A stretch of DNA of 64,000 nt from Phyllosticta citribraziliensis (taxonomy: Eukaryota): the NCBI RefSeq assembly GCF_038025025.1, contig NW_027117345.1, positions 558,001 to 622,000 on the forward strand. Direction: 5' to 3'. Made by a program: the position numbers and the translations under genes. Under the pieces are notes generated by a model. It saw only the letters and a list, made by a program, of their open reading frames with translations. It ran no database searches and had not been told where the DNA came from. Every line of letters begins with the position of its first letter. Positions within the stretch are counted from its first letter, which is position 1. This document shows positions 29,131 through 39,439 of the stretch, one piece after another.

Positions 29131-29166
29131 TTGTTTTCTCTCTGTCCGTTGTTTTCTCTCTGTCCG
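29131..29166 (+). repeat. Perfect 18-bp tandem duplication (TTGTTTTCTCTCTGTCCG)x2
   Basis: Read directly; lies ~390 nt upstream of the small CAAX ORF. Confidence 0.85.
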
Positions 29167-29554
29167 CTTCCATCGAATCACTCTACCCTACTGTACATAT
29201 AATATCCGCCGCTACCACTAACTACTTTGCCTTCTCCCCATTCCGCCTTTTTACTCTCTCTGCCGTACTGCTACCACTTTCTGCCCACCTGCCCAAGCGC
29301 TTGTTCCTACCCGAACGCTTCACCCTCGCGTCGTACTCCCCGGCCTGCTCGACTCTCCACCGACCCTACCTCTTCGCGCCCCTTTCTTGTTCTCCGCCCA
29401 AACAAGCAAGCAAGTGTCGTAATCACTACTCGGCTCAGCTCTGTATCACACGACATCAGCCACCGCGCTCCACCCACCACCTACATATATACTCCAACTT
29501 CGACGTCTGGAACTCCCAACTCAAAGTCCGACCGAACGCGACAAAGGCGCAAAC

Positions 29555-29701
29555 ATGCCCGGCTCCACCTCGTCTTCCTCTTCCAGTAGCGCGTCGTCCA
29601 TCGCCAAGCCCATCGCCAAACCAATCAAGACGGGCTGCCTCAGCTGCCCCTGCGGCGACGGCGAGTGCACCTGCTGTTTCCTGCCCTGCACCGTCATGTA
29701 A
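29555..29701 (+). CDS. 48-aa Cys-rich microprotein ending in a CAAX box: MPGSTSSSSSSSASSIAKPIAKPIKTGCLSCPCGDGECTCCFLPCTVM
   Basis: Start context CAAACATG, TATATA at 29486-29491, mostly C/G-ending codons, 7 Cys in the last 21 residues, terminal CTVM*. Below the 60-aa cut-off of the ORF track. Confidence 0.65.
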   Translation: MPGSTSSSSSSSASSIAKPIAKPIKTGCLSCPCGDGECTCCFLPCTVM

Positions 29702-30604
29702 TCGACGAAGGACGGACACTTGAGACTTGTGTGGGAGCGATGAGGATGGAAGAGCGAAGGAGAGAGCGTGTGGAGAGAGGCGATATACCCCCAACGACGG
29801 ACGGACGGACACGGCTGAATGGATTGGATACGGTGTAGGACTGATTGGATTCAACACGCTCGCGGTGACCATCATGGCACGAGTGGTCGTCAAGGCACCA
29901 ACCTATACTGTGGACAACGACATGGACGATGATGACGAGTTTCGGGAGCGTTAGATGGAGCACAGCACGACTTGCATCTTTCCTTACCACGAATTCCACT
30001 TCTTTTACCACCTTCTTCAACGCCTGGTCCACCGTGCGTGTGTCAATTAGTTGTGTCTACCATGGCGGCGCGGGGAGTTGAAAAGAGCATGGAATCCTGG
30101 GACGCACGTGGACATCTTTCTCCCCCGTCCCTCCAGATGCCACCATGGCCTCGCCACTACCAGTCTTTCCCAGGCATCGGCCCGCGCAAAAGCTTGTGGA
30201 TAACTTAGCTAGGGAGCGAGTTGACTAGCGGGCTGAGGGTTCACGCTCCAAGACCTCATCTCAGCTCGGCCAATCCACCAAGTCCACCCAGCGCGACCAA
30301 CAACACATACCTGCATAGCGGCCTTGTTCCAGAGAGTTTGACACAGTCCAGAAGTTCAGAACTGACCTTACCGATGCTAGGTAATTGTAGGTGTTTTTAC
30401 GGTACCCGACGCGAGCGAGTCATTAATCACCGAAATCCGGGGGAGACTCGATGGTTGGCTTACAAGAAGGCGCCAACGTAGCTATAGCTGCTGCTGTATA
30501 TGTTTACGACTTGAGCAACAGGAAAAGCAAGAGAAAGAAAAACCGTTGCGGTAAAAGAGCAGCAGCATCACCCCCACCCCTACCAAAAGATCTACAGGGA
30601 AATC

Positions 30605-32517: not shown

Positions 32518-35500
32518 TCAAAGTCCCCCCGTAAACGAGTCGTGCTTGACCTGCTCCGCCGTCTTGGCCGGTGCCGGCGAGACGGCAGCAGGCTCAGGGA
32601 TGGCGTTTGTCGAGACGACCGAACCCCTCTTGAAGCCCTGGTTGCGGATAAAGGACCCCACGTCCTGGTTGTGGCCGATGAGCTCGTCATTGAGCTGCTC
32701 GAGCTGCCGGACCTGTTCACGAATGCCCGCGATCTATTGTGCTCGGCACAAGGCCGGATGTTAGCCCCATGGCCGCCACGTAGAAGTCTTCGCAACACTT
32801 GCACGCAAAAGCAGTGGGGTCGGGGGAGGGCGGCGTCAACGTCATGGCCGACGACAAGGACGACATTTTGTTGTGCTTGTGGTGCGACATTTTGGGCGAC
32901 GACTTGGGCGAGGGCAGGGAGCTGGGATCAAAGCAAGTGCTCGCTGAAGACAAAGGAGAGCTGACCATGTATGCAGACGACCTGCGGGTCTCACTCGAAC
33001 GCACCTGTCCGGCGGAGTTCTTTTCGGCACCTCCCAAAATGCCCTCGAACGTCTCGCTGCTCGGGCGAGAGTATTGGGGCGGCGCGCCGCCATTCTGGCG
33101 ATACGACGCGAGCTCCGACTCGAGCTCGATGATGTGCTGCTTGTACGTCTCGCACTCCTTGATGAGCTCGGCGACGCGAGGGCTCTCGCGCGAGCCTGCG
33201 ATTTCGACCTGTAGGCGGTCAATCTCGGCGTTGAGGCGACCAATCTCGGCCTCCGCCTTCTTGACCTGGCCAAACTGTTCGTTGACCTCGGCCTTTGCGC
33301 TGTCCAGCAGCTCCGAGAGCTTGTCTATGGTGGCCTGCGAGGCGCTCTGGGCTTCGCTCTTGAGGTGTTGCTCGCGAATGGCTTGCGACTCGGCAATCTT
33401 GGCCCTTTCTTCTTTCAGGGCCTCGTCGAGAGCCTGCTGGTAGAGCCTATCAGTCTCGTTGTGCTGCTTTTTGATGCGCGCAATTTCAGTCTCGAGAGAG
33501 GAGACAACCTCGTTGTGCTCATGCGCCAGACGCGCCTTGAGTGCGTCCCTCTCCTGCTCGTGGATCTGGCTCAGCGTCTGCTCCGACGAGTTGCGCTCCT
33601 TTGCGTGTTCGTTCCAGAGCTTCTCGAGGAGGTGGTTGTGCTCTTCTTGACTGTGATGGTCATTAGCCTCAGATCCAGAGACAAGTCATCGGGAGCTCCA
33701 CGTACCTCTGCTCCATCTGGTGGCGGAGCTCTTGAAGCTGAGACTCCAAGTGACGAAGCGCGTCTTGCTTCGCGGACTTTTGGTGCTCGAGATCCTCGTT
33801 CCTATCGGTCAGATCCTGGTTGAGCGCCTTGAGCTTGACAATCTCGTCCTCGAGCTTGACGCGAGTGCTGTGCAGCTCGGTCTCGAGCTCTTGCCTCATC
33901 TTGACCAGACCGGACGCGTGGTGGCCGTCGCGTTCTTCGTGGGCTTGGTCCAGAACACGGAGGGTCTGCATGAGGCCTTCGACTTGACGACTCTTCTCCT
34001 CGAGCTCCCTAGTCGTCTCTTCGAGCTTGCGGTGAGTATCCTGGAACTCGTGCAGCTGAGGCATGGCATCGGCAATTGATTGGCGGCGAGCGTTGAGCTC
34101 CTGGTTCATCCGCGACATTTCGGCATCCTTTTCGGCGAGCTTGTCGGCAGCGCGATACTCAGCATCCGAAATCTTGTCCTGGAGACCCTTGATGACCTTG
34201 GCGTGGTCCTTCTCGGTCTGCTTGGCCTTGTTGCTCTCGACGGCGAGCTGACCTTCGAGAAGATCCTTTTCTTGGTGAAGCTTGTCAATCTCCTCGTGAA
34301 GCTGGTCAATCTCATCCTGAAGCTGAGGGATGAGGTTTCCGTCCTCCTCATTGGCCTGACGGGCAGTGTCGAGCTGCTTCTCGAGCACCTCCTTCTCCTC
34401 GATCAGAGCAGTCACGCGAGACTCGAGTCTTGAGATGCGGTCTTCAAACTCCTGGCGCACTTCCCAGGCGTCGGGACCTTTCTGAGCCTCATCAAGGTTG
34501 GTGTGGAGGCTTTCAACGTTCTGTTTGAGAGTCTCAATCTCCTGCTCGCGCTCAAGCGTGAGCTGTGCGCTGCCCTCGAGCTGCTCGTTGTACACGCGGC
34601 AGATTTCTTGGATTTCCTCCTCGAATTGGGCTTGGATATCCTTGCTTGCCTTTTGGTTGAAGTCGATGGCGGCCGCTGCGTTGCTAATTTCCAGCTTTTT
34701 GCTCTCGAGCTCCCGAGTGATGCCCTCGATACGCTCCACGAGCTCACCAATCTGAGCCGTCTTGGATTGAAGCTCGGATTCCATGTTGTTGATTTCATCA
34801 GCACGGTTTTGCTCAAGTTCCTTAATGCGGTCCTGGAGGCCCGACACCACTTCGTTGCTTGAGATTTCGCCTTCGAGCTCAGTCGACATCTTGTCGCGCA
34901 AGTCCTGGTTCTTCTGGAACTCGACCTTGTGCTTGGCAAGGAGTGCATCGTAGTCATCCCGATGTTGTTGAAGCTCAGCGGCGTATTGCTTAGCGTCTTC
35001 CTCGGCTTTGCTCACGATTGCAGCCTTGTCCTGTTCAACCGTGGCAAGTTGCTGCCGAAGCACTTCAACCTCGGCGCCGAGGCCGCGGTCGTCGTCGGCC
35101 GTCTGCTGCTGGAGAGAGACAATCTTGTCTTGAAGAGCAGCAATGGTCGCTTCCATCGACGACTTTTCGAGTTCCATTTCCTCGACGCGCTGCTCAAGTC
35201 TAGACGTTTCCTCGACTCCACGAGTACCATCAGTAGCATCTTGCTGCAAAGTCATAATCTTCTCCTGGAGAGAGGAAATGGTCGAGTCTGTGGCAGACTT
35301 TTCCTCGGCCAATTGAGCCAGCTGGATCTTGAGGTGCTCTGTCTCTTCATGAGCACTGCGGGCATTGTCGGCCTTTTCTTGCTCGAGGGAAACAATCTTG
35401 TCTTGCAGGGTCTGGATGGCAGTCTGGAGAGTGGCCTTTTCAGTGTCGAATTGGAGGCTGTGTCTCTTCAGGCTCGCAGTCCCGTCTTCGACAGCAGCGG

Positions 35501-38500
35501 CCTTGTCGGCGGCGTCTCTCTCGAGGGTCTCGCATTTTTCTTGCAGATGAAGAACAACAGCGTTGAGGGCTTCCTTTTCAGAATCCAGTTCCAACTTCTT
35601 CTGCTCAAAGGCTTCAATCTGAGCCTTGAAGTCTTCCTGGTGCTGAATGAGCTTCTCGGCCATTTCCTTCTCCATGCTCGCAATCTTGTCTTGGTGGGTA
35701 GCGAGGTCAGCGGCGGCAGAAGTCCTTTCTTGCTCCAGCTCATCCACACGCTGCTTGAGGAGACCTTCGGATTCAGAAGAGTGCGTCTTGGACTGCTCCT
35801 GAAGAGCAGCGTACCTCTCGGCAAAGGCGGCACGCTCTTCGTCAGCGCGGCGGGCGTTCTCGGCGGACTCTTCTTCCCACAGCTTGAGCTTCTCGGCAAA
35901 GCTGCTATTGTCTGCCTTGACGCGCTCCAAGTCGTCCATGGCCTTTTGCTTGATATCCTCGAGGTTGGTGGACAATTCGGCAGACTTGGCCTGCGACTCT
36001 GCAAAGTCCTTTTGAAGAACCTCAATGTCGGCAGCCTTTTGGGCCAGGTCTTGCTGAGACGACTTGATGGCATCTTCAAAGGCCGAGGCTTCAGCCGTCA
36101 ACCTAGTGTTGTCCTCCTGGGTCTTGTTCAAGGTTTCGACGATCTCCTGGAGCTTGTCGGCAGCTTCCTTCTCGATGGTGGCAATCTTGTTCTCGAGAGC
36201 GATTCTAGAAGACTTCTCAACCTCGAGCGCTTCCTCGAGCGTCTTGGCGTTGGCTTCCGCAGCAGAAACCTTTTCAGCAGCTTCGCTTTCAATCTTGGCA
36301 ATGAGCTCGTCGACTTCGGATTGAGACTTGAGAGATCCGCTCTGCTCCTTGTGCTTCTGCAGCTCCTCTTCGAGGTGACGGATCTTTTCAACGCTCTCGC
36401 TCTGTATCGATGCGAGGAGCAGGTCAACCTCGGATTGAGTCTTCAGCGAAGTGCGCTCTTCTTGGCTCTTCGACAGGTTCTCCTCGACCAAGCGAATCTT
36501 TTCCGCGTTCTCGCCATGAATGCTGGCGAGGAGCTCGTCAACCTCCTCTTGACTCTTGAGGTTACCCTGGTCTTCCTCCAAACGAAGAATGTCGGCCTCG
36601 AGCGCCTTGACCCTTTCATTTGCCTCGTAAGTAGCCGTGGCAACCATCTGGTCGACCTCAGACACCGTCTTAAGGCGCCTGCGCTCGTCCTGAAGGCTCT
36701 GCAGGTTCTCCTCGAGAATTCGTAGTTTTTCAGCATGCTCCAGGTGAATGTTAGCCAGCAGCTCTTCGACCTCGGCCTCCGACCTGGTGCTGCCACGCTC
36801 CTCCTGGTATTTGAGCAGATCCTTCTCGAGAAGACGGAGTCTTTCAGCAGTCTCAGCAGTGGCAGTCGCAACCATTTGATCGACTTCAGAAACAGTCTTG
36901 AGGCGTCTGCGCTCGTCTGAGAGGCTGTGGCAAAGATCTTGAAGTTCGGCGAGCTTTTCGGCGTGCTCAGTCTGGACCTGCGCGAGAATCTCTTCGATCT
37001 CGGCTTCGGTCTTCAGGGTAGCACGTTCCTCCTCCACTCTCTTGAGTTCCTCCTCAAGCAGCTGGATTCTCTTAGCGCTTTCTTCCTCGACCTTCTGAAC
37101 CAACTCGTCGATTTCAGCCTGGGACTTGGAGCCACGCTGCTCGTCGTTGGTTGCCTTGAAGGTCTGCTCCAGCTCGAGAATCTTTTGTTGGTGCTCCTGC
37201 TGAGCCGAAGCAAGCTTCTCCTCAATGTCGGTGATAGCAGCGGCCGCCACGTCGCGTTCCTCGCTGAGCTTAGCATCGTGCTTCTCCGCGAGTTCGTCCG
37301 CGAGGCGCTTCTGCTCAGAGAGATCGGCTTGCACTTCGGAGAGCTGCTTCTCGAGAATCTCAATGGTGCCGGCCAAAGCCTCACGTTCTTCCAGCAGCTG
37401 CTTCTTGTACTTTTCGACCTCTGCTTTGAGAGCGGCAACCTCCTCATCGGAGCCGGTGTGCGAAGTTGCGAGTTGTGCCTCGAGCTCGACAATCTTGGCA
37501 GATAGGGCAGTCTTCTCTTGCTCAAGAGGAGTCAAGGCGTCCGCAAGCCTAGCAGTCTCTTCGTCGTGCTTGGCCTGAAGTTCGGCAAACTTCTCCTCGA
37601 GAGTGCTGTGCCTTTGCCTTTCCTCCTCGAGCTGAGTTGTGAGGGATTGGACTTCGTCGGTGGTGCTCGTCTGGGCACTGGAAAGATCATTCTCGAGTTG
37701 CTGGATTTGCTCCGAAGCCTGCTTCTTGTACGCCTCCAGGTCGTCCGCGTGACGCTTGATTTCGGCCTCTGTGGCTTCCCTGGTAGCGAAAAGCTCTGCT
37801 TCGAGCTGGGAAATCTTCTCCGAAGAGGCCTGGAACTCGACCTCAAAGGCCTTGGATGCGGCCAGCTCAGACTCGAGCTTGGCAATCGATTCCGTGGCAA
37901 TCTGCTTCTCGTCCTCCAGCACCCGAAGACGATCGGCTTGCGTGTCGTTTCCACCGCTGGCAGCACTCAAGTCGGCCTTGAGGCCCTCGAGTTCCTGCTC
38001 AAGGCTCGAGACTCTCGCGTCGGACGAAGTCTTTTGTGCAACGAGGTCCTCATGCAGCTTTTGGGCAGTCTCGAGTTCTTGTTGCAGTTGCGAAATGCTT
38101 TCTTCAGAAGAGGCTTTCAAGGCATCAAGCTCTGCTTGGAGCTCCCGAGCCTTCCCGTCGGCCAAGCGTTGCTCTTCCTCGAGAACCTTCTCCCGGTCAT
38201 CCATCTCGACTGAGACACGGTCGAGCTCATGTTGCAAGGCTTCGAGAGTGGAGTTGAGCTCCTCCTTCTCCTGAGAGACCTTGGATGCCTCGTCCTTGGA
38301 TTGCTCTAGACGGTACTTGACATCCTCAAGCTCGACGGCCTTGATCCTGAGCTCCTCGTTCCGACGGCGAATGTCCTCGGTCTCCGAGTCAAGGGTGGAG
38401 TTGGCAGACTCCATGGCGGAGGTGTGCTCCTGGCGTTGCCGTTCCAGGTGCTCGGCAGCTTCGGCAGCCTTGAGATCGGCAACCTCCTTGTCCGCCTGAA

Positions 38501-39439
38501 GCTCCTCCATGTTCGATTGAAGCTCCTGAATCCTCGTCTCGAGGGCTTTTCGTTGCTCAAACTCAGCCGTCAAGTCATTCATAATGTCACGAGCTGCCCG
38601 GGCGGCGCGAGGCGACCTAAACACCTCGCTGTCGATCCCTGGGACCGCCTCCGGAGAAAGGGGGTTCTCCGTAGGTACAGGTGCCTCGGCGTCGGCGTCA
38701 TCCTTTGCTTCGGAACGGAGGGAGATGGGGCTGTAGGATAAGGTTAGTTGTGTGCAAGATGGTGGAATCGGAAAGCCAACCTTTCAAGTTCGCGCGGTGC
38801 TCCAGCAGCGGCGGAGGCCTTTTTCGTGTCGACACCGGGACGAGAGGATGCCGATGTCATGGACATGCGTGTGCTGGGGCGAGCAGGAGCGGTTGTTTTG
38901 GCACCGCTGGTTGTAGTTGTCCGCCTACTGTCTGTAGTCGATGTGCGTGAGACCGTCGAGGGTCTCTTGGTGGCGGACGAGGTGGTTGATGGAGGATGAC
39001 GAGAAGTGGATGGGGTAGCAGTTGATGTCCGTGCCGACGAAGAGGCCGTGCCAGCGGTAGGCAGCCTCTTGGAAGCCGCACTGGCAACCGACTTCTTGTC
39101 ATCGGCGGCGTCTGCATCTTTCGATGTGGTTGTTGCCCTGCGGGCAGTGGTTGTGGTCGAGGCCGCGGGGCGCGTCGGAGGCTTGCTAAGACTGCCGGCG
39201 GTCGACGTACGCGTTGCCGAGGACGAAGTGGGTTTCGTGGCAGTAGAGGTACGCGTAGATGTAGCGGGTGTTCGCGAGGACACGACGGTAGAGGTTGGCC
39301 TGCGAGGCGGGGCAGAAGCTCCGGTCTTTGCAGCTGGGCTTGCAGTGGCCGTGGAGGAAGCTCTCTTGTGGGCAGCGGCCGTGGTCTTGGAGGCGACCGA
39401 GTCCCCGGCGGTCGTCTCAGGAGCTTCTCTGTCGGCCAT
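32518..39439 (-). CDS. Large coiled-coil protein (~2,180 aa) with a basic S/T/R-rich N-terminus; exons 39439-38781, 38730-33706, 33650-33005 (or -32966), 32733-32518
   Basis: A 1651-codon E/K/L/Q-rich heptad ORF is joined in frame by GT..AG introns 38780-38731 and 33705-33651. The last exon IAGIREQVRQLEQLNDEL.. follows CTAAC..TAG. The last donor is ambiguous. Confidence 0.8.
36216..37127 (-). repeat. Coding tandem repeat, 8 x 38 aa (114 nt)
   Basis: Units begin KSQAEIDEL, KTEAEIEEI, KTVSEVDQM, RSEAEVEEL, KTVSEVDQM, KSQEEVDEL, KTQSEVDLL, KSQSEVDEL at exactly 38-aa spacing. Confidence 0.85.

What the first reader, a model, noticed from the sequence alone, without database searches (positions are those of the whole stretch)
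29486..29701. Hidden 48-aa Cys-rich CAAX microprotein: a-class pheromone precursor or prenylated metallothionein-like peptide
Seen: MPGST-S7-ASS-(IAKP)x2-IKTG-CLSCPCGDGECTCCFLP-CTVM*, with TATATA 64 nt upstream, A at -3, a pyrimidine-rich upstream region and an 18-bp duplication. It sits alone in a 1.9-kb gap. Known: CxVM/CxIM* ends and short MP(S/T)-rich N-termini typify ascomycete a-class lipopeptide pheromone precursors, which annotation often misses. CAAX ending in M is a farnesyltransferase substrate; CxxCxC/CxCC clusters bind Cu/Zn or are palmitoylated. Six extra Cys and no Asn processing site do not fit a classical a-factor. Inference: a membrane-anchored Cys-rich microprotein, or a disulfide/metal-bound lipopeptide signal, possibly undescribed. 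The copper-fist TF 25 kb away is not evidence of linkage.
Basis: partly seen in the sequence, partly recalled or inferred. Interest (0 to 1): 0.8.

Follow-up and report, generated by a model that had tools for sequence, protein, structure and literature searches.

The report
Conserved fungal cysteine-rich lipid-anchored microprotein
A tiny overlooked fungal gene makes a 48-residue, cysteine-rich protein that is probably fixed to membranes by a lipid tail; its family was published as a possible mating pheromone, but it is far more widespread and most likely does something else that nobody has yet tested.

Summary
The ORF is real: window 29555-29701 (+), 48 aa, ending CTVM-stop. The host looks like a Phyllosticta-type Dothideomycete. 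The peptide is not undescribed: it is homologous to the Leotiomycete 'putative a-factor' (BCIN_13g03330 family, PMC10569646). I found 47 distinct relatives in metagenomes and 98 database proteins from Leotiomycetes, Sordariomycetes and Dothideomycetes, plus one amoebal ubiquitin-like fusion. None of the 48 aligned members matches a Pfam family at a meaningful score. The evidence is against it being the a-factor. Fusarium graminearum carries a member (FGSG_05361) besides its characterised ppg2. The family sits at a MED7/PAP2/VHS-GAT locus, not the cyanase locus. A Botrytis MAT1-1 strain expresses it. This genome has a better a-class candidate near cyanase, a three-repeat h-type-like precursor. 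The window gene is a second copy; the syntenic paralogue lies 167 kb away. Best reading (about 0.5, inferred): a cytosolic, prenylated, partly S-acylated membrane microprotein working like CYSTM/CYSPD proteins. Rivals: membrane-bound metal binder (0.2), exported non-mating lipopeptide (0.2), true a-factor (0.07). No modification, metal binding or function was shown here.

The parts
29555..29701 (+). Single-exon ORF, 48 aa, Cys-rich CAAX microprotein (P0001), stop TAA
   Evidence: identical 48 aa at the end of an over-long Phyllosticta citricarpa gene model; family alignment A2
29555..29599 (+). Ser/Thr-rich N-terminal segment (aa 1-15), variable in length across the family
29600..29635 (+). 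S-I-x-K-P motif, duplicated here (IAKP x2), and basic linker with 3 Lys
   Evidence: 12-bp repeat 29598-29621; 125 of 127 family sequences have 2-4 Lys/Arg in this zone
29636..29677 (+). Cys-rich acidic core Cx2CxCx4CxCC (aa 28-41)
   Evidence: this spacing in 5 of 127 family sequences
29687..29701 (+). CAAX box CTVM and stop; predicted farnesylation site C45 (inferred from established CAAX rules)
   Evidence: a relative's contig diverges right after the stop (X13)
29486..29491 (+).
   Evidence: contigs extend upstream of it
29198..29203 (+). Alternative TATA-like element TATAAT, followed by a C/T-rich tract (69% C+T, 29204-29480) with no upstream ATG
   Evidence: function not tested
29131..29166 (.). 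Exact 18-bp tandem duplication upstream; probably incidental
29264..29976 (.). Approximate span covered by contigs of probable RNA runs around the ORF
   Evidence: X3 contigs 29264-29682 and 29686-29976 only; X19 one 608-nt contig separate from its glucoamylase contig

Best explanation
The gene is a second copy of a conserved Pezizomycotina family of 38-63-aa microproteins. Shown: it is a protein-coding gene under purifying selection, and relatives are transcribed. Inferred from established CAAX biochemistry: the peptide is made in the cytosol without a signal peptide, prenylated on C45 (farnesyl for CTVM), trimmed and methylated. The Cys-Cys pair 4-5 residues upstream and probably further cysteines are S-acylated, and the lysines help hold it on the cytosolic face of a membrane. 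It would then work like CYSTM/CYSPD proteins, as a small thiol-rich membrane resident in membrane, redox or metal stress handling, and not as the Ste3 mating ligand. The downstream role is the weakest step.
For: Family: 67 of 118 motif hits in metagenomes are family members, 47 distinct; 0 of 38 prokaryotic and 0 of 4 viral hits are. A purine stands at -3 in 47 of 47 distinct members against 665 of 1183 other ATGs. 34 pairs with an identical 17-aa core carry 3-10 synonymous codon changes, most with flanks at 0.5-0.7 identity (pairs were chosen for identical cores). Not a-factor: F. graminearum has FGSG_05361, one 55-aa sequence shared by 21 Fusarium taxa, and a different ppg2 at the cyanase locus. 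42 of 62 named hits are Sordariomycetes (classes assigned from my knowledge of the genera). Family loci share MED7, PAP2, VHS-GAT or MFS neighbours, and none matched the 100 kb around host cyanase and EBP2. B. cinerea MAT1-1 strain B05.10 expresses it at RPKM 180 with ste3 at 0. 11 of 12 Leotiomycetes lacking functional Ste3 keep it. Total Cys is 6, 7 or 8, against a fixed disulfide pattern. Yeast CYSTM proteins are membrane-bound by palmitoylation of a terminal Cys cluster (PMC10840359).
Against: No lipid modification, localisation or phenotype was tested. No CYSTM Pfam match in 48 members, and the N-terminus is Ser/Thr-rich, not Pro/Gly/Glu-rich. Non-Cys core residues are conserved across classes, more than a plain acylation tail seems to need, which fits a fold or a receptor. 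A variable N-terminus before a conserved lipidated tail is also the layout of a pro-peptide. Five M. fructicola RNA sets showed no expression, so it is not simply constitutive.
Confidence: 0.5

Rival explanations
1. A prenyl-anchored metallothionein-like or zinc-knuckle peptide: the 5-7 non-CAAX cysteines and 2-4 acidic residues stay free and bind Zn, Cu or Cd at a membrane.
For: CxxC, CxC and CC clusters with 2-4 Asp/Glu in 127 of 127 sequences. A low-confidence model puts strands at 28-31 and 38-41, pairing the two Cys groups. UniRef auto-names a few members 'Metallothionein'.
Against: No metallothionein Pfam match in 48 members. Aromatic residues lie in the core of 115 of 127; metallothioneins usually lack them (recalled). 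The model is unreliable (mean pLDDT 47.6). The auto-names are not evidence: a sister sequence is auto-named 'Transcription factor BYE1'.
Confidence: 0.2
2. A precursor of an exported lipopeptide signal unrelated to mating type: the Ser/Thr-rich part is cut off and a 17-21-aa prenylated Cys-rich peptide leaves through an ABC exporter.
For: Precursor-like layout. In the amoeba Planoprotostelium the same 17-aa core follows a ubiquitin-like domain ending in Gly-Gly (P0105), which would release exactly the core if cleaved. Strong core conservation; two paralogues in some genomes.
Against: No conserved cleavage site: Asn lies upstream of the CAAX Cys in only 2 of 127. The amoebal fusion is a single sequence with no further relative found and may be a membrane-anchored ubiquitin-fold protein, a transfer or a contaminant. 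No receptor is known.
Confidence: 0.2
3. The true a-factor mating pheromone precursor of this fungus, acting on Ste3, as proposed for the Leotiomycete family.
For: Short, Ser/Thr-rich start, Met-Pro start and CTVM end, as in Sordariomycete a-factors. The host has a Ste3 gene. PMC10569646 proposes this role for the family.
Against: Coexists with ppg2 in F. graminearum; different locus; expressed in MAT1-1; kept when Ste3 is lost. The authors themselves doubt a mating role. The host has a 68-aa three-repeat precursor one gene from cyanase.
Confidence: 0.07
4. A chance ORF, or the tail of a longer protein as in the 249-aa NCBI model.
For: The NCBI model P0002 runs 201 aa further upstream, and the window frame is open for 92 aa.
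Against: The upstream in-frame translation differs between P0002 and the window while the 48 aa are identical. A relative's contig departs from the window just before the ATG and right after the stop. Kozak signal 47 of 47.
Confidence: 0.02

Closest known systems
Leotiomycete 'putative a-factor' family, B. cinerea BCIN_13g03330 (PMC10569646)
   Same: Ser/Thr-rich start, S-I-x-K-P motif, Cys-rich acidic core, [IL]P-CTVM end, similar length. A profile of 10 rows of that type alone ranks the window ORF first among 8674 ORFs (E 1.5e-5). L010 reads identical, by eye, to the paper's C. malorum entry.
   Different: Cys spacing Cx2CxCx4CxCC instead of Cx2Cx4CCC; no GY motif; no N-terminal Cys; Dothideomycete host; the window copy is off the ancestral locus, which the paralogue at C8:420070-420207 holds.
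Sordariomycete a-factor precursors (N. crassa mfa-1, F. graminearum ppg2) and h-type precursors (T. reesei hpp1)
   Same: Short ORF, Met-Pro-Ser/Thr-like start, terminal CAAX ending in Met.
   Different: The listed mfa-1 and ppg2 have only the CAAX Cys, and h-type precursors repeat the motif. They lie mostly at the cyanase-EBP2 locus; this family does not.
CYSTM/CYSPD proteins (yeast Cpp1-3; PMC10840359)
   Same: Small proteins with a low-complexity N-terminus and a terminal cluster of 5-6 Cys; tied to membranes and to stress or metal tolerance.
   Different: No profile match; the word CAAX does not occur in that paper; different N-terminal composition. A functional analogy only.
Fungal metallothioneins (recalled; no call defines them)
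   Same: Very small, CxC and CC motifs.
   Different: Cys confined to the last 21 aa, hydrophobic and aromatic residues in the core, CAAX end, no Pfam match.

Membership tests
BCIN_13g03330 family (Leotiomycete putative a-factor) | Sequence homology of the Cys-rich C-terminal core | tested here: met
   E 1e-4 pairwise; top hit of a profile without the window sequence
BCIN_13g03330 family (Leotiomycete putative a-factor) | 45-64 aa, Ser/Thr-rich N-terminus, terminal CAAX (mostly CTVM) | tested here: met
BCIN_13g03330 family (Leotiomycete putative a-factor) | GY motif near the C-terminus (87 of at least 111 published members, so common but not universal) | tested here: not met
   also absent from many other members
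BCIN_13g03330 family (Leotiomycete putative a-factor) | Orthologous locus (MED7 / PAP2 / VHS-GAT; defined here, not in the paper) | tested here: not met
   No family locus matched any window neighbour; the host paralogue at C8:420070-420207 holds the locus. The window gene is a paralogous member.
Canonical a-factor precursor (mfa-1 / ppg2) | Short ORF with terminal CAAX | tested here: met
Canonical a-factor precursor (mfa-1 / ppg2) | Position at the cyanase-EBP2 locus | tested here: not met
   Cyanase and EBP2 are on C16, the gene is on C8; another CAAX precursor lies 5.5 kb from the cyanase match
Canonical a-factor precursor (mfa-1 / ppg2) | Mature peptide without a Cys cluster; Asn-type processing site (recalled for several a-factors) | tested here: not met
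   Six extra Cys and no Asn in the ORF; Asn in 2 of 127
Canonical a-factor precursor (mfa-1 / ppg2) | MAT1-2-specific expression and Ste3 activation | not testable with these tools
   No mating-type data for this gene; the homologue is expressed in MAT1-1 B. cinerea
h-type precursor (hpp1) | Three copies of a GC(T/S)VM-like motif | tested here: not met
   One copy only
CYSTM/CYSPD | Match to the CYSTM profile; Pro/Gly/Glu-rich N-terminus | tested here: not met
   0 of 48 members match in Pfam
CYSTM/CYSPD | Membrane binding through S-acylation of the Cys cluster | not testable with these tools
   needs acyl-biotin exchange
Metallothionein | Profile match; Cys spread through the chain; no aromatic residues (recalled) | tested here: not met
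Metallothionein | Metal binding and metal-induced expression | not testable with these tools
   none available

The most novel reading that the evidence does not exclude
The 17-21-aa prenylated Cys-rich core is an old, self-contained module: filamentous ascomycetes release it from a Ser/Thr-rich pro-peptide and an amoebozoan from a ubiquitin-like leader cut at Gly-Gly. It would be a third conserved fungal peptide system beside the alpha- and a-factors, a mating-type-independent lipopeptide signal or membrane thiol/metal sensor with its own partner, now misfiled as the Leotiomycete a-factor. The real a-class precursor of these fungi would then be the overlooked gene at the cyanase locus, here an h-type-like repeat precursor in a Dothideomycete.
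Probability: 0.22. Interest if true: 0.82.

Novelty: new member of a known kind. Interest (0 to 1): 0.57.

Why it matters
The missing a-factor of non-Sordariomycete filamentous ascomycetes is a long-standing question. These results suggest that the family proposed for Leotiomycetes is a different, class-spanning gene, and they point to a testable alternative at the cyanase locus in a Dothideomycete. They also define a strongly conserved, Pfam-less, mostly unannotated or mis-modelled microprotein family in at least three fungal classes, for which my searches found no functional study. The window gene itself is one more member, not a new kind.

Tried and rejected
Searches with the single protein gave little: no Pfam family, no word-sharing homologue, exact sequence not in the collection, no metagenome locus among 596 candidates, and only itself in the own genome, which missed the paralogue. 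The atlas gave two unnamed Ascomycota clusters at 0.81 and 0.76, leads only. phmmer gave 7 hits: 2 real (P0002, P0004); P0003 is a repeat protein and P0005-P0008 were not inspected. The AlphaFold model had mean pLDDT 47.6 and was not used for a fold search. No further relative of the amoebal fusion was found. Two weak own-genome hits to the paralogue are not members, and a profile over 33 further loci found no third copy; only 30 of 82 sites of that motif scan were fetched. Contig depths were not used to rank expression, and uncovered bins are not evidence of silence. No named Eurotiomycete hit appeared; this is not absence. The copper-fist link was not pursued; the one exon scanned had no Pfam hit. 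Colletotrichum acutatum and C. fioriniae keep a family sequence while C. acutatum's a-factor is reported broken, but their gene models run on past the CAAX, so this is weak. The 2025 A. fumigatus ppgB paper (doi 10.1016/j.cub.2025.03.080) is not held; I saw only citations of it, and it may bear on novelty. Earlier scan findings were not available.

Full report
Observation. The ORF is at window 29555-29701 (+) and translates to MPGSTSSSSSSSASSIAKPIAKPIKTGCLSCPCGDGECTCCFLPCTVM. It lies in a 1.88-kb gap between a glucoamylase with a starch-binding domain and a short-chain dehydrogenase. TATATA (29486-29491), A at -3, a C/T-rich upstream tract without ATG and the 18-bp duplication (29131-29166) are all present. 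No such ORF arose in 150 Markov simulations of the window.

Host. An NCBI model from Phyllosticta citricarpa (249 aa) ends in the identical 48 aa, but its upstream translation differs from the window's. The host is therefore probably a related Dothideomycete, and the long model is probably over-extended. I did not determine the species.

Transcription and conservation in close relatives. I laid 4 of the 24 listed runs; all are contigs. In X13, another organism, one contig continues from the neighbouring SDR's first exon into sequence that matches its second exon by eye, so the run is RNA. Another contig matches 29568-29701 with 7 changes and no gaps and departs from the window right after the stop; two contigs depart just before the ATG. 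The two changes listed are both synonymous; the other five were not shown. X19, recorded as RNA-Seq, has a 608-nt contig around the ORF, separate from its glucoamylase contig. X3, of unknown kind, covers only 29264-29976. X1, RNA by guess, breaks at the SDR intron but joins the whole gap in one contig, so it shows no boundary. Strand, start and level cannot be read from contigs.

The family. PMC10569646 (seen: passages, section 21, the whole discussion, S2, S3 and S10 files and S4 table; its slide-format supplements were unreadable) reports a 45-64-aa Ser/Thr-rich, mostly CTVM-ending gene in at least 111 of 124 Leotiomycetes as a putative a-factor. Its C-terminal layout matches the window peptide. 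The same motif gave 0 members among 38 prokaryotic and 4 viral hits. The motif forces three Cys, the Pro and the Met, so their invariance is not evidence. Features it does not force are: a Met 38-63 codons upstream with a purine at -3 in 47 of 47 (control 665 of 1183), a Ser/Thr-rich start, lysines, and further Cys with acidic residues. A profile built from only 10 Leotiomycete/Sordariomycete-type rows ranks the window ORF first among 8674 ORFs. The 48-row alignment found 98 proteins among 2289 candidates. Of 62 with an organism, 42 are Sordariomycetes, 17 Leotiomycetes, 2 Dothideomycetes and 1 an amoebozoan (classes from my own knowledge of the genera); Alternaria and Pyrenophora add to the Dothideomycetes. 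80 of the 98 end in a clean CAAX; the others run on past it or end otherwise. Pfam matched 1 of 48 members, at E 0.26 to an unrelated family.

Two copies in the host. Reading 71 CAAX-stop sites from a scan with 101 hits (those ending TGG dropped, one unlisted) revealed a 45-aa paralogue at G000:C8:420070-420207 (-), 167 kb from the window gene. It lies between a VHS-GAT gene and a PAP2 phosphatase, with MED7 15 kb away. Leotiomycete/Sordariomycete-type loci (L003, L010, L017, L027, L034, L050, L053, L066, L077) and others (L009, L013, L026, L038, L043, L052) share these neighbours; no family locus matched a window neighbour. The paralogue is thus the positional orthologue of the published gene and the window gene a second copy. 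L046 also holds two copies, about 0.8 kb apart.

Why it is probably not the a-factor. (1) F. graminearum has FGSG_05361, one 55-aa sequence ending CTIL shared by 21 Fusarium taxa, while its ppg2 is a different 21-aa peptide at the cyanase locus (PMC3068285, abstract and passages). (2) Sordariomycete a-factors lie between cyanase and EBP2 (PMC8661429, passages); this family does not. (3) The Botrytis gene is expressed in a MAT1-1 strain, and 11 of 12 species without functional Ste3 keep it. (4) The host has a 68-aa ORF at C16:311516-311722 with three copies of a VDMYGC(T/S)V(Q/M) motif and a basic dipeptide. It is one phospholipase D gene away from cyanase and resembles the hpp1 motif. In favour of the pheromone reading remain the precursor-like layout and the host's Ste3 gene. 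The function of the C16 ORF is itself untested.

Mechanism. Shown: coding, conserved, duplicated, transcribed in relatives. Inferred from established biochemistry (recalled): CTVM is a farnesyltransferase substrate and CTIL a geranylgeranyltransferase one, and cysteines just upstream of a CAAX box are commonly S-acylated. Varying Cys number and the lack of a conserved cleavage site favour an intact cytosolic membrane protein. The closest working model is CYSTM/CYSPD, palmitoylated plasma-membrane microproteins whose mode of action is also unknown (PMC10840359, abstract and passages). It is not a member of that family. Metal binding and export remain open. The structure model is uninformative.

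An outlier. P0105 from Planoprotostelium fungivorum is a ubiquitin-like domain ending in Gly-Gly followed by a 17-aa tail that matches locus L009 at 16 of 17 residues (profile match probability 97.8). It is a single sequence with no further relative. It may mark an old module, a transfer or contamination.

Novelty. The family is in print once, under another interpretation. Ten literature searches found no functional study, no report of it outside Leotiomycetes, and no main-text mention of FGSG_05361. PMC11787670, PMC3445971, PMC13712828 and PMC13037118 were seen as passages only. Subscription papers, including the 2025 A. fumigatus ppgB study, and other papers' supplements were not seen and could change this. 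Verdict: a real gene, a new paralogous member of a known but functionally unknown family; the wider range and the likely misassignment are the interesting part.

Noticed in passing
G000:C16:311516-311722 (+) = L153:6516-6722: 68-aa ORF with three VDMYGC(T/S)V(Q/M) repeats, a basic dipeptide and a terminal CSVM, one phospholipase D gene from cyanase; AAA precedes the ATG. A candidate h-type/a-class pheromone precursor in a Dothideomycete; single copy, exact sequence not in the protein collection.
   Followed up: partly
G000:C11:62848-62907 (+), L162, and G000:C12:427211-427270 (-), L163: Two copies of an identical 19-aa ORF ending CTVM with AAA before the ATG; only about 70 bp are shared between the loci (97%). 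A further lipopeptide or a-factor candidate.
   Followed up: partly
G000:C8:420070-420207 (-) = L180:321-458: 45-aa paralogue of the finding's peptide at the ancestral VHS-GAT / PAP2 / MED7 locus, ending CVVM.
   Followed up: yes
P0105 (Planoprotostelium fungivorum PROFUN_15513): Ubiquitin-like domain ending Gly-Gly fused to the family's 17-aa Cys-rich CAAX core; the only non-fungal hit.
   Followed up: partly
L046:2165-2278 and L046:3092-3214: Two family members of different Cys-spacing subtypes in tandem, about 0.8 kb apart.
   Followed up: no
P0002, P0004, P0022, P0052, P0127: Public gene models often extend the gene upstream, fuse it to the VHS-GAT neighbour, or lose the terminal CAAX (possibly at an intron), which hides the family.
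   Followed up: partly
L075, L088, L094, L100, L051: Several AT-rich metagenome contigs share an unrelated short frame ending in a CDC-x-x-MPCH(M/I)M-stop motif; not family members, unexplained.
   Followed up: no
window 33669-38783 (-): Very long (over 1600 aa) acidic coiled-coil ORF with internal repeats, 4 kb from the finding.
   Followed up: no
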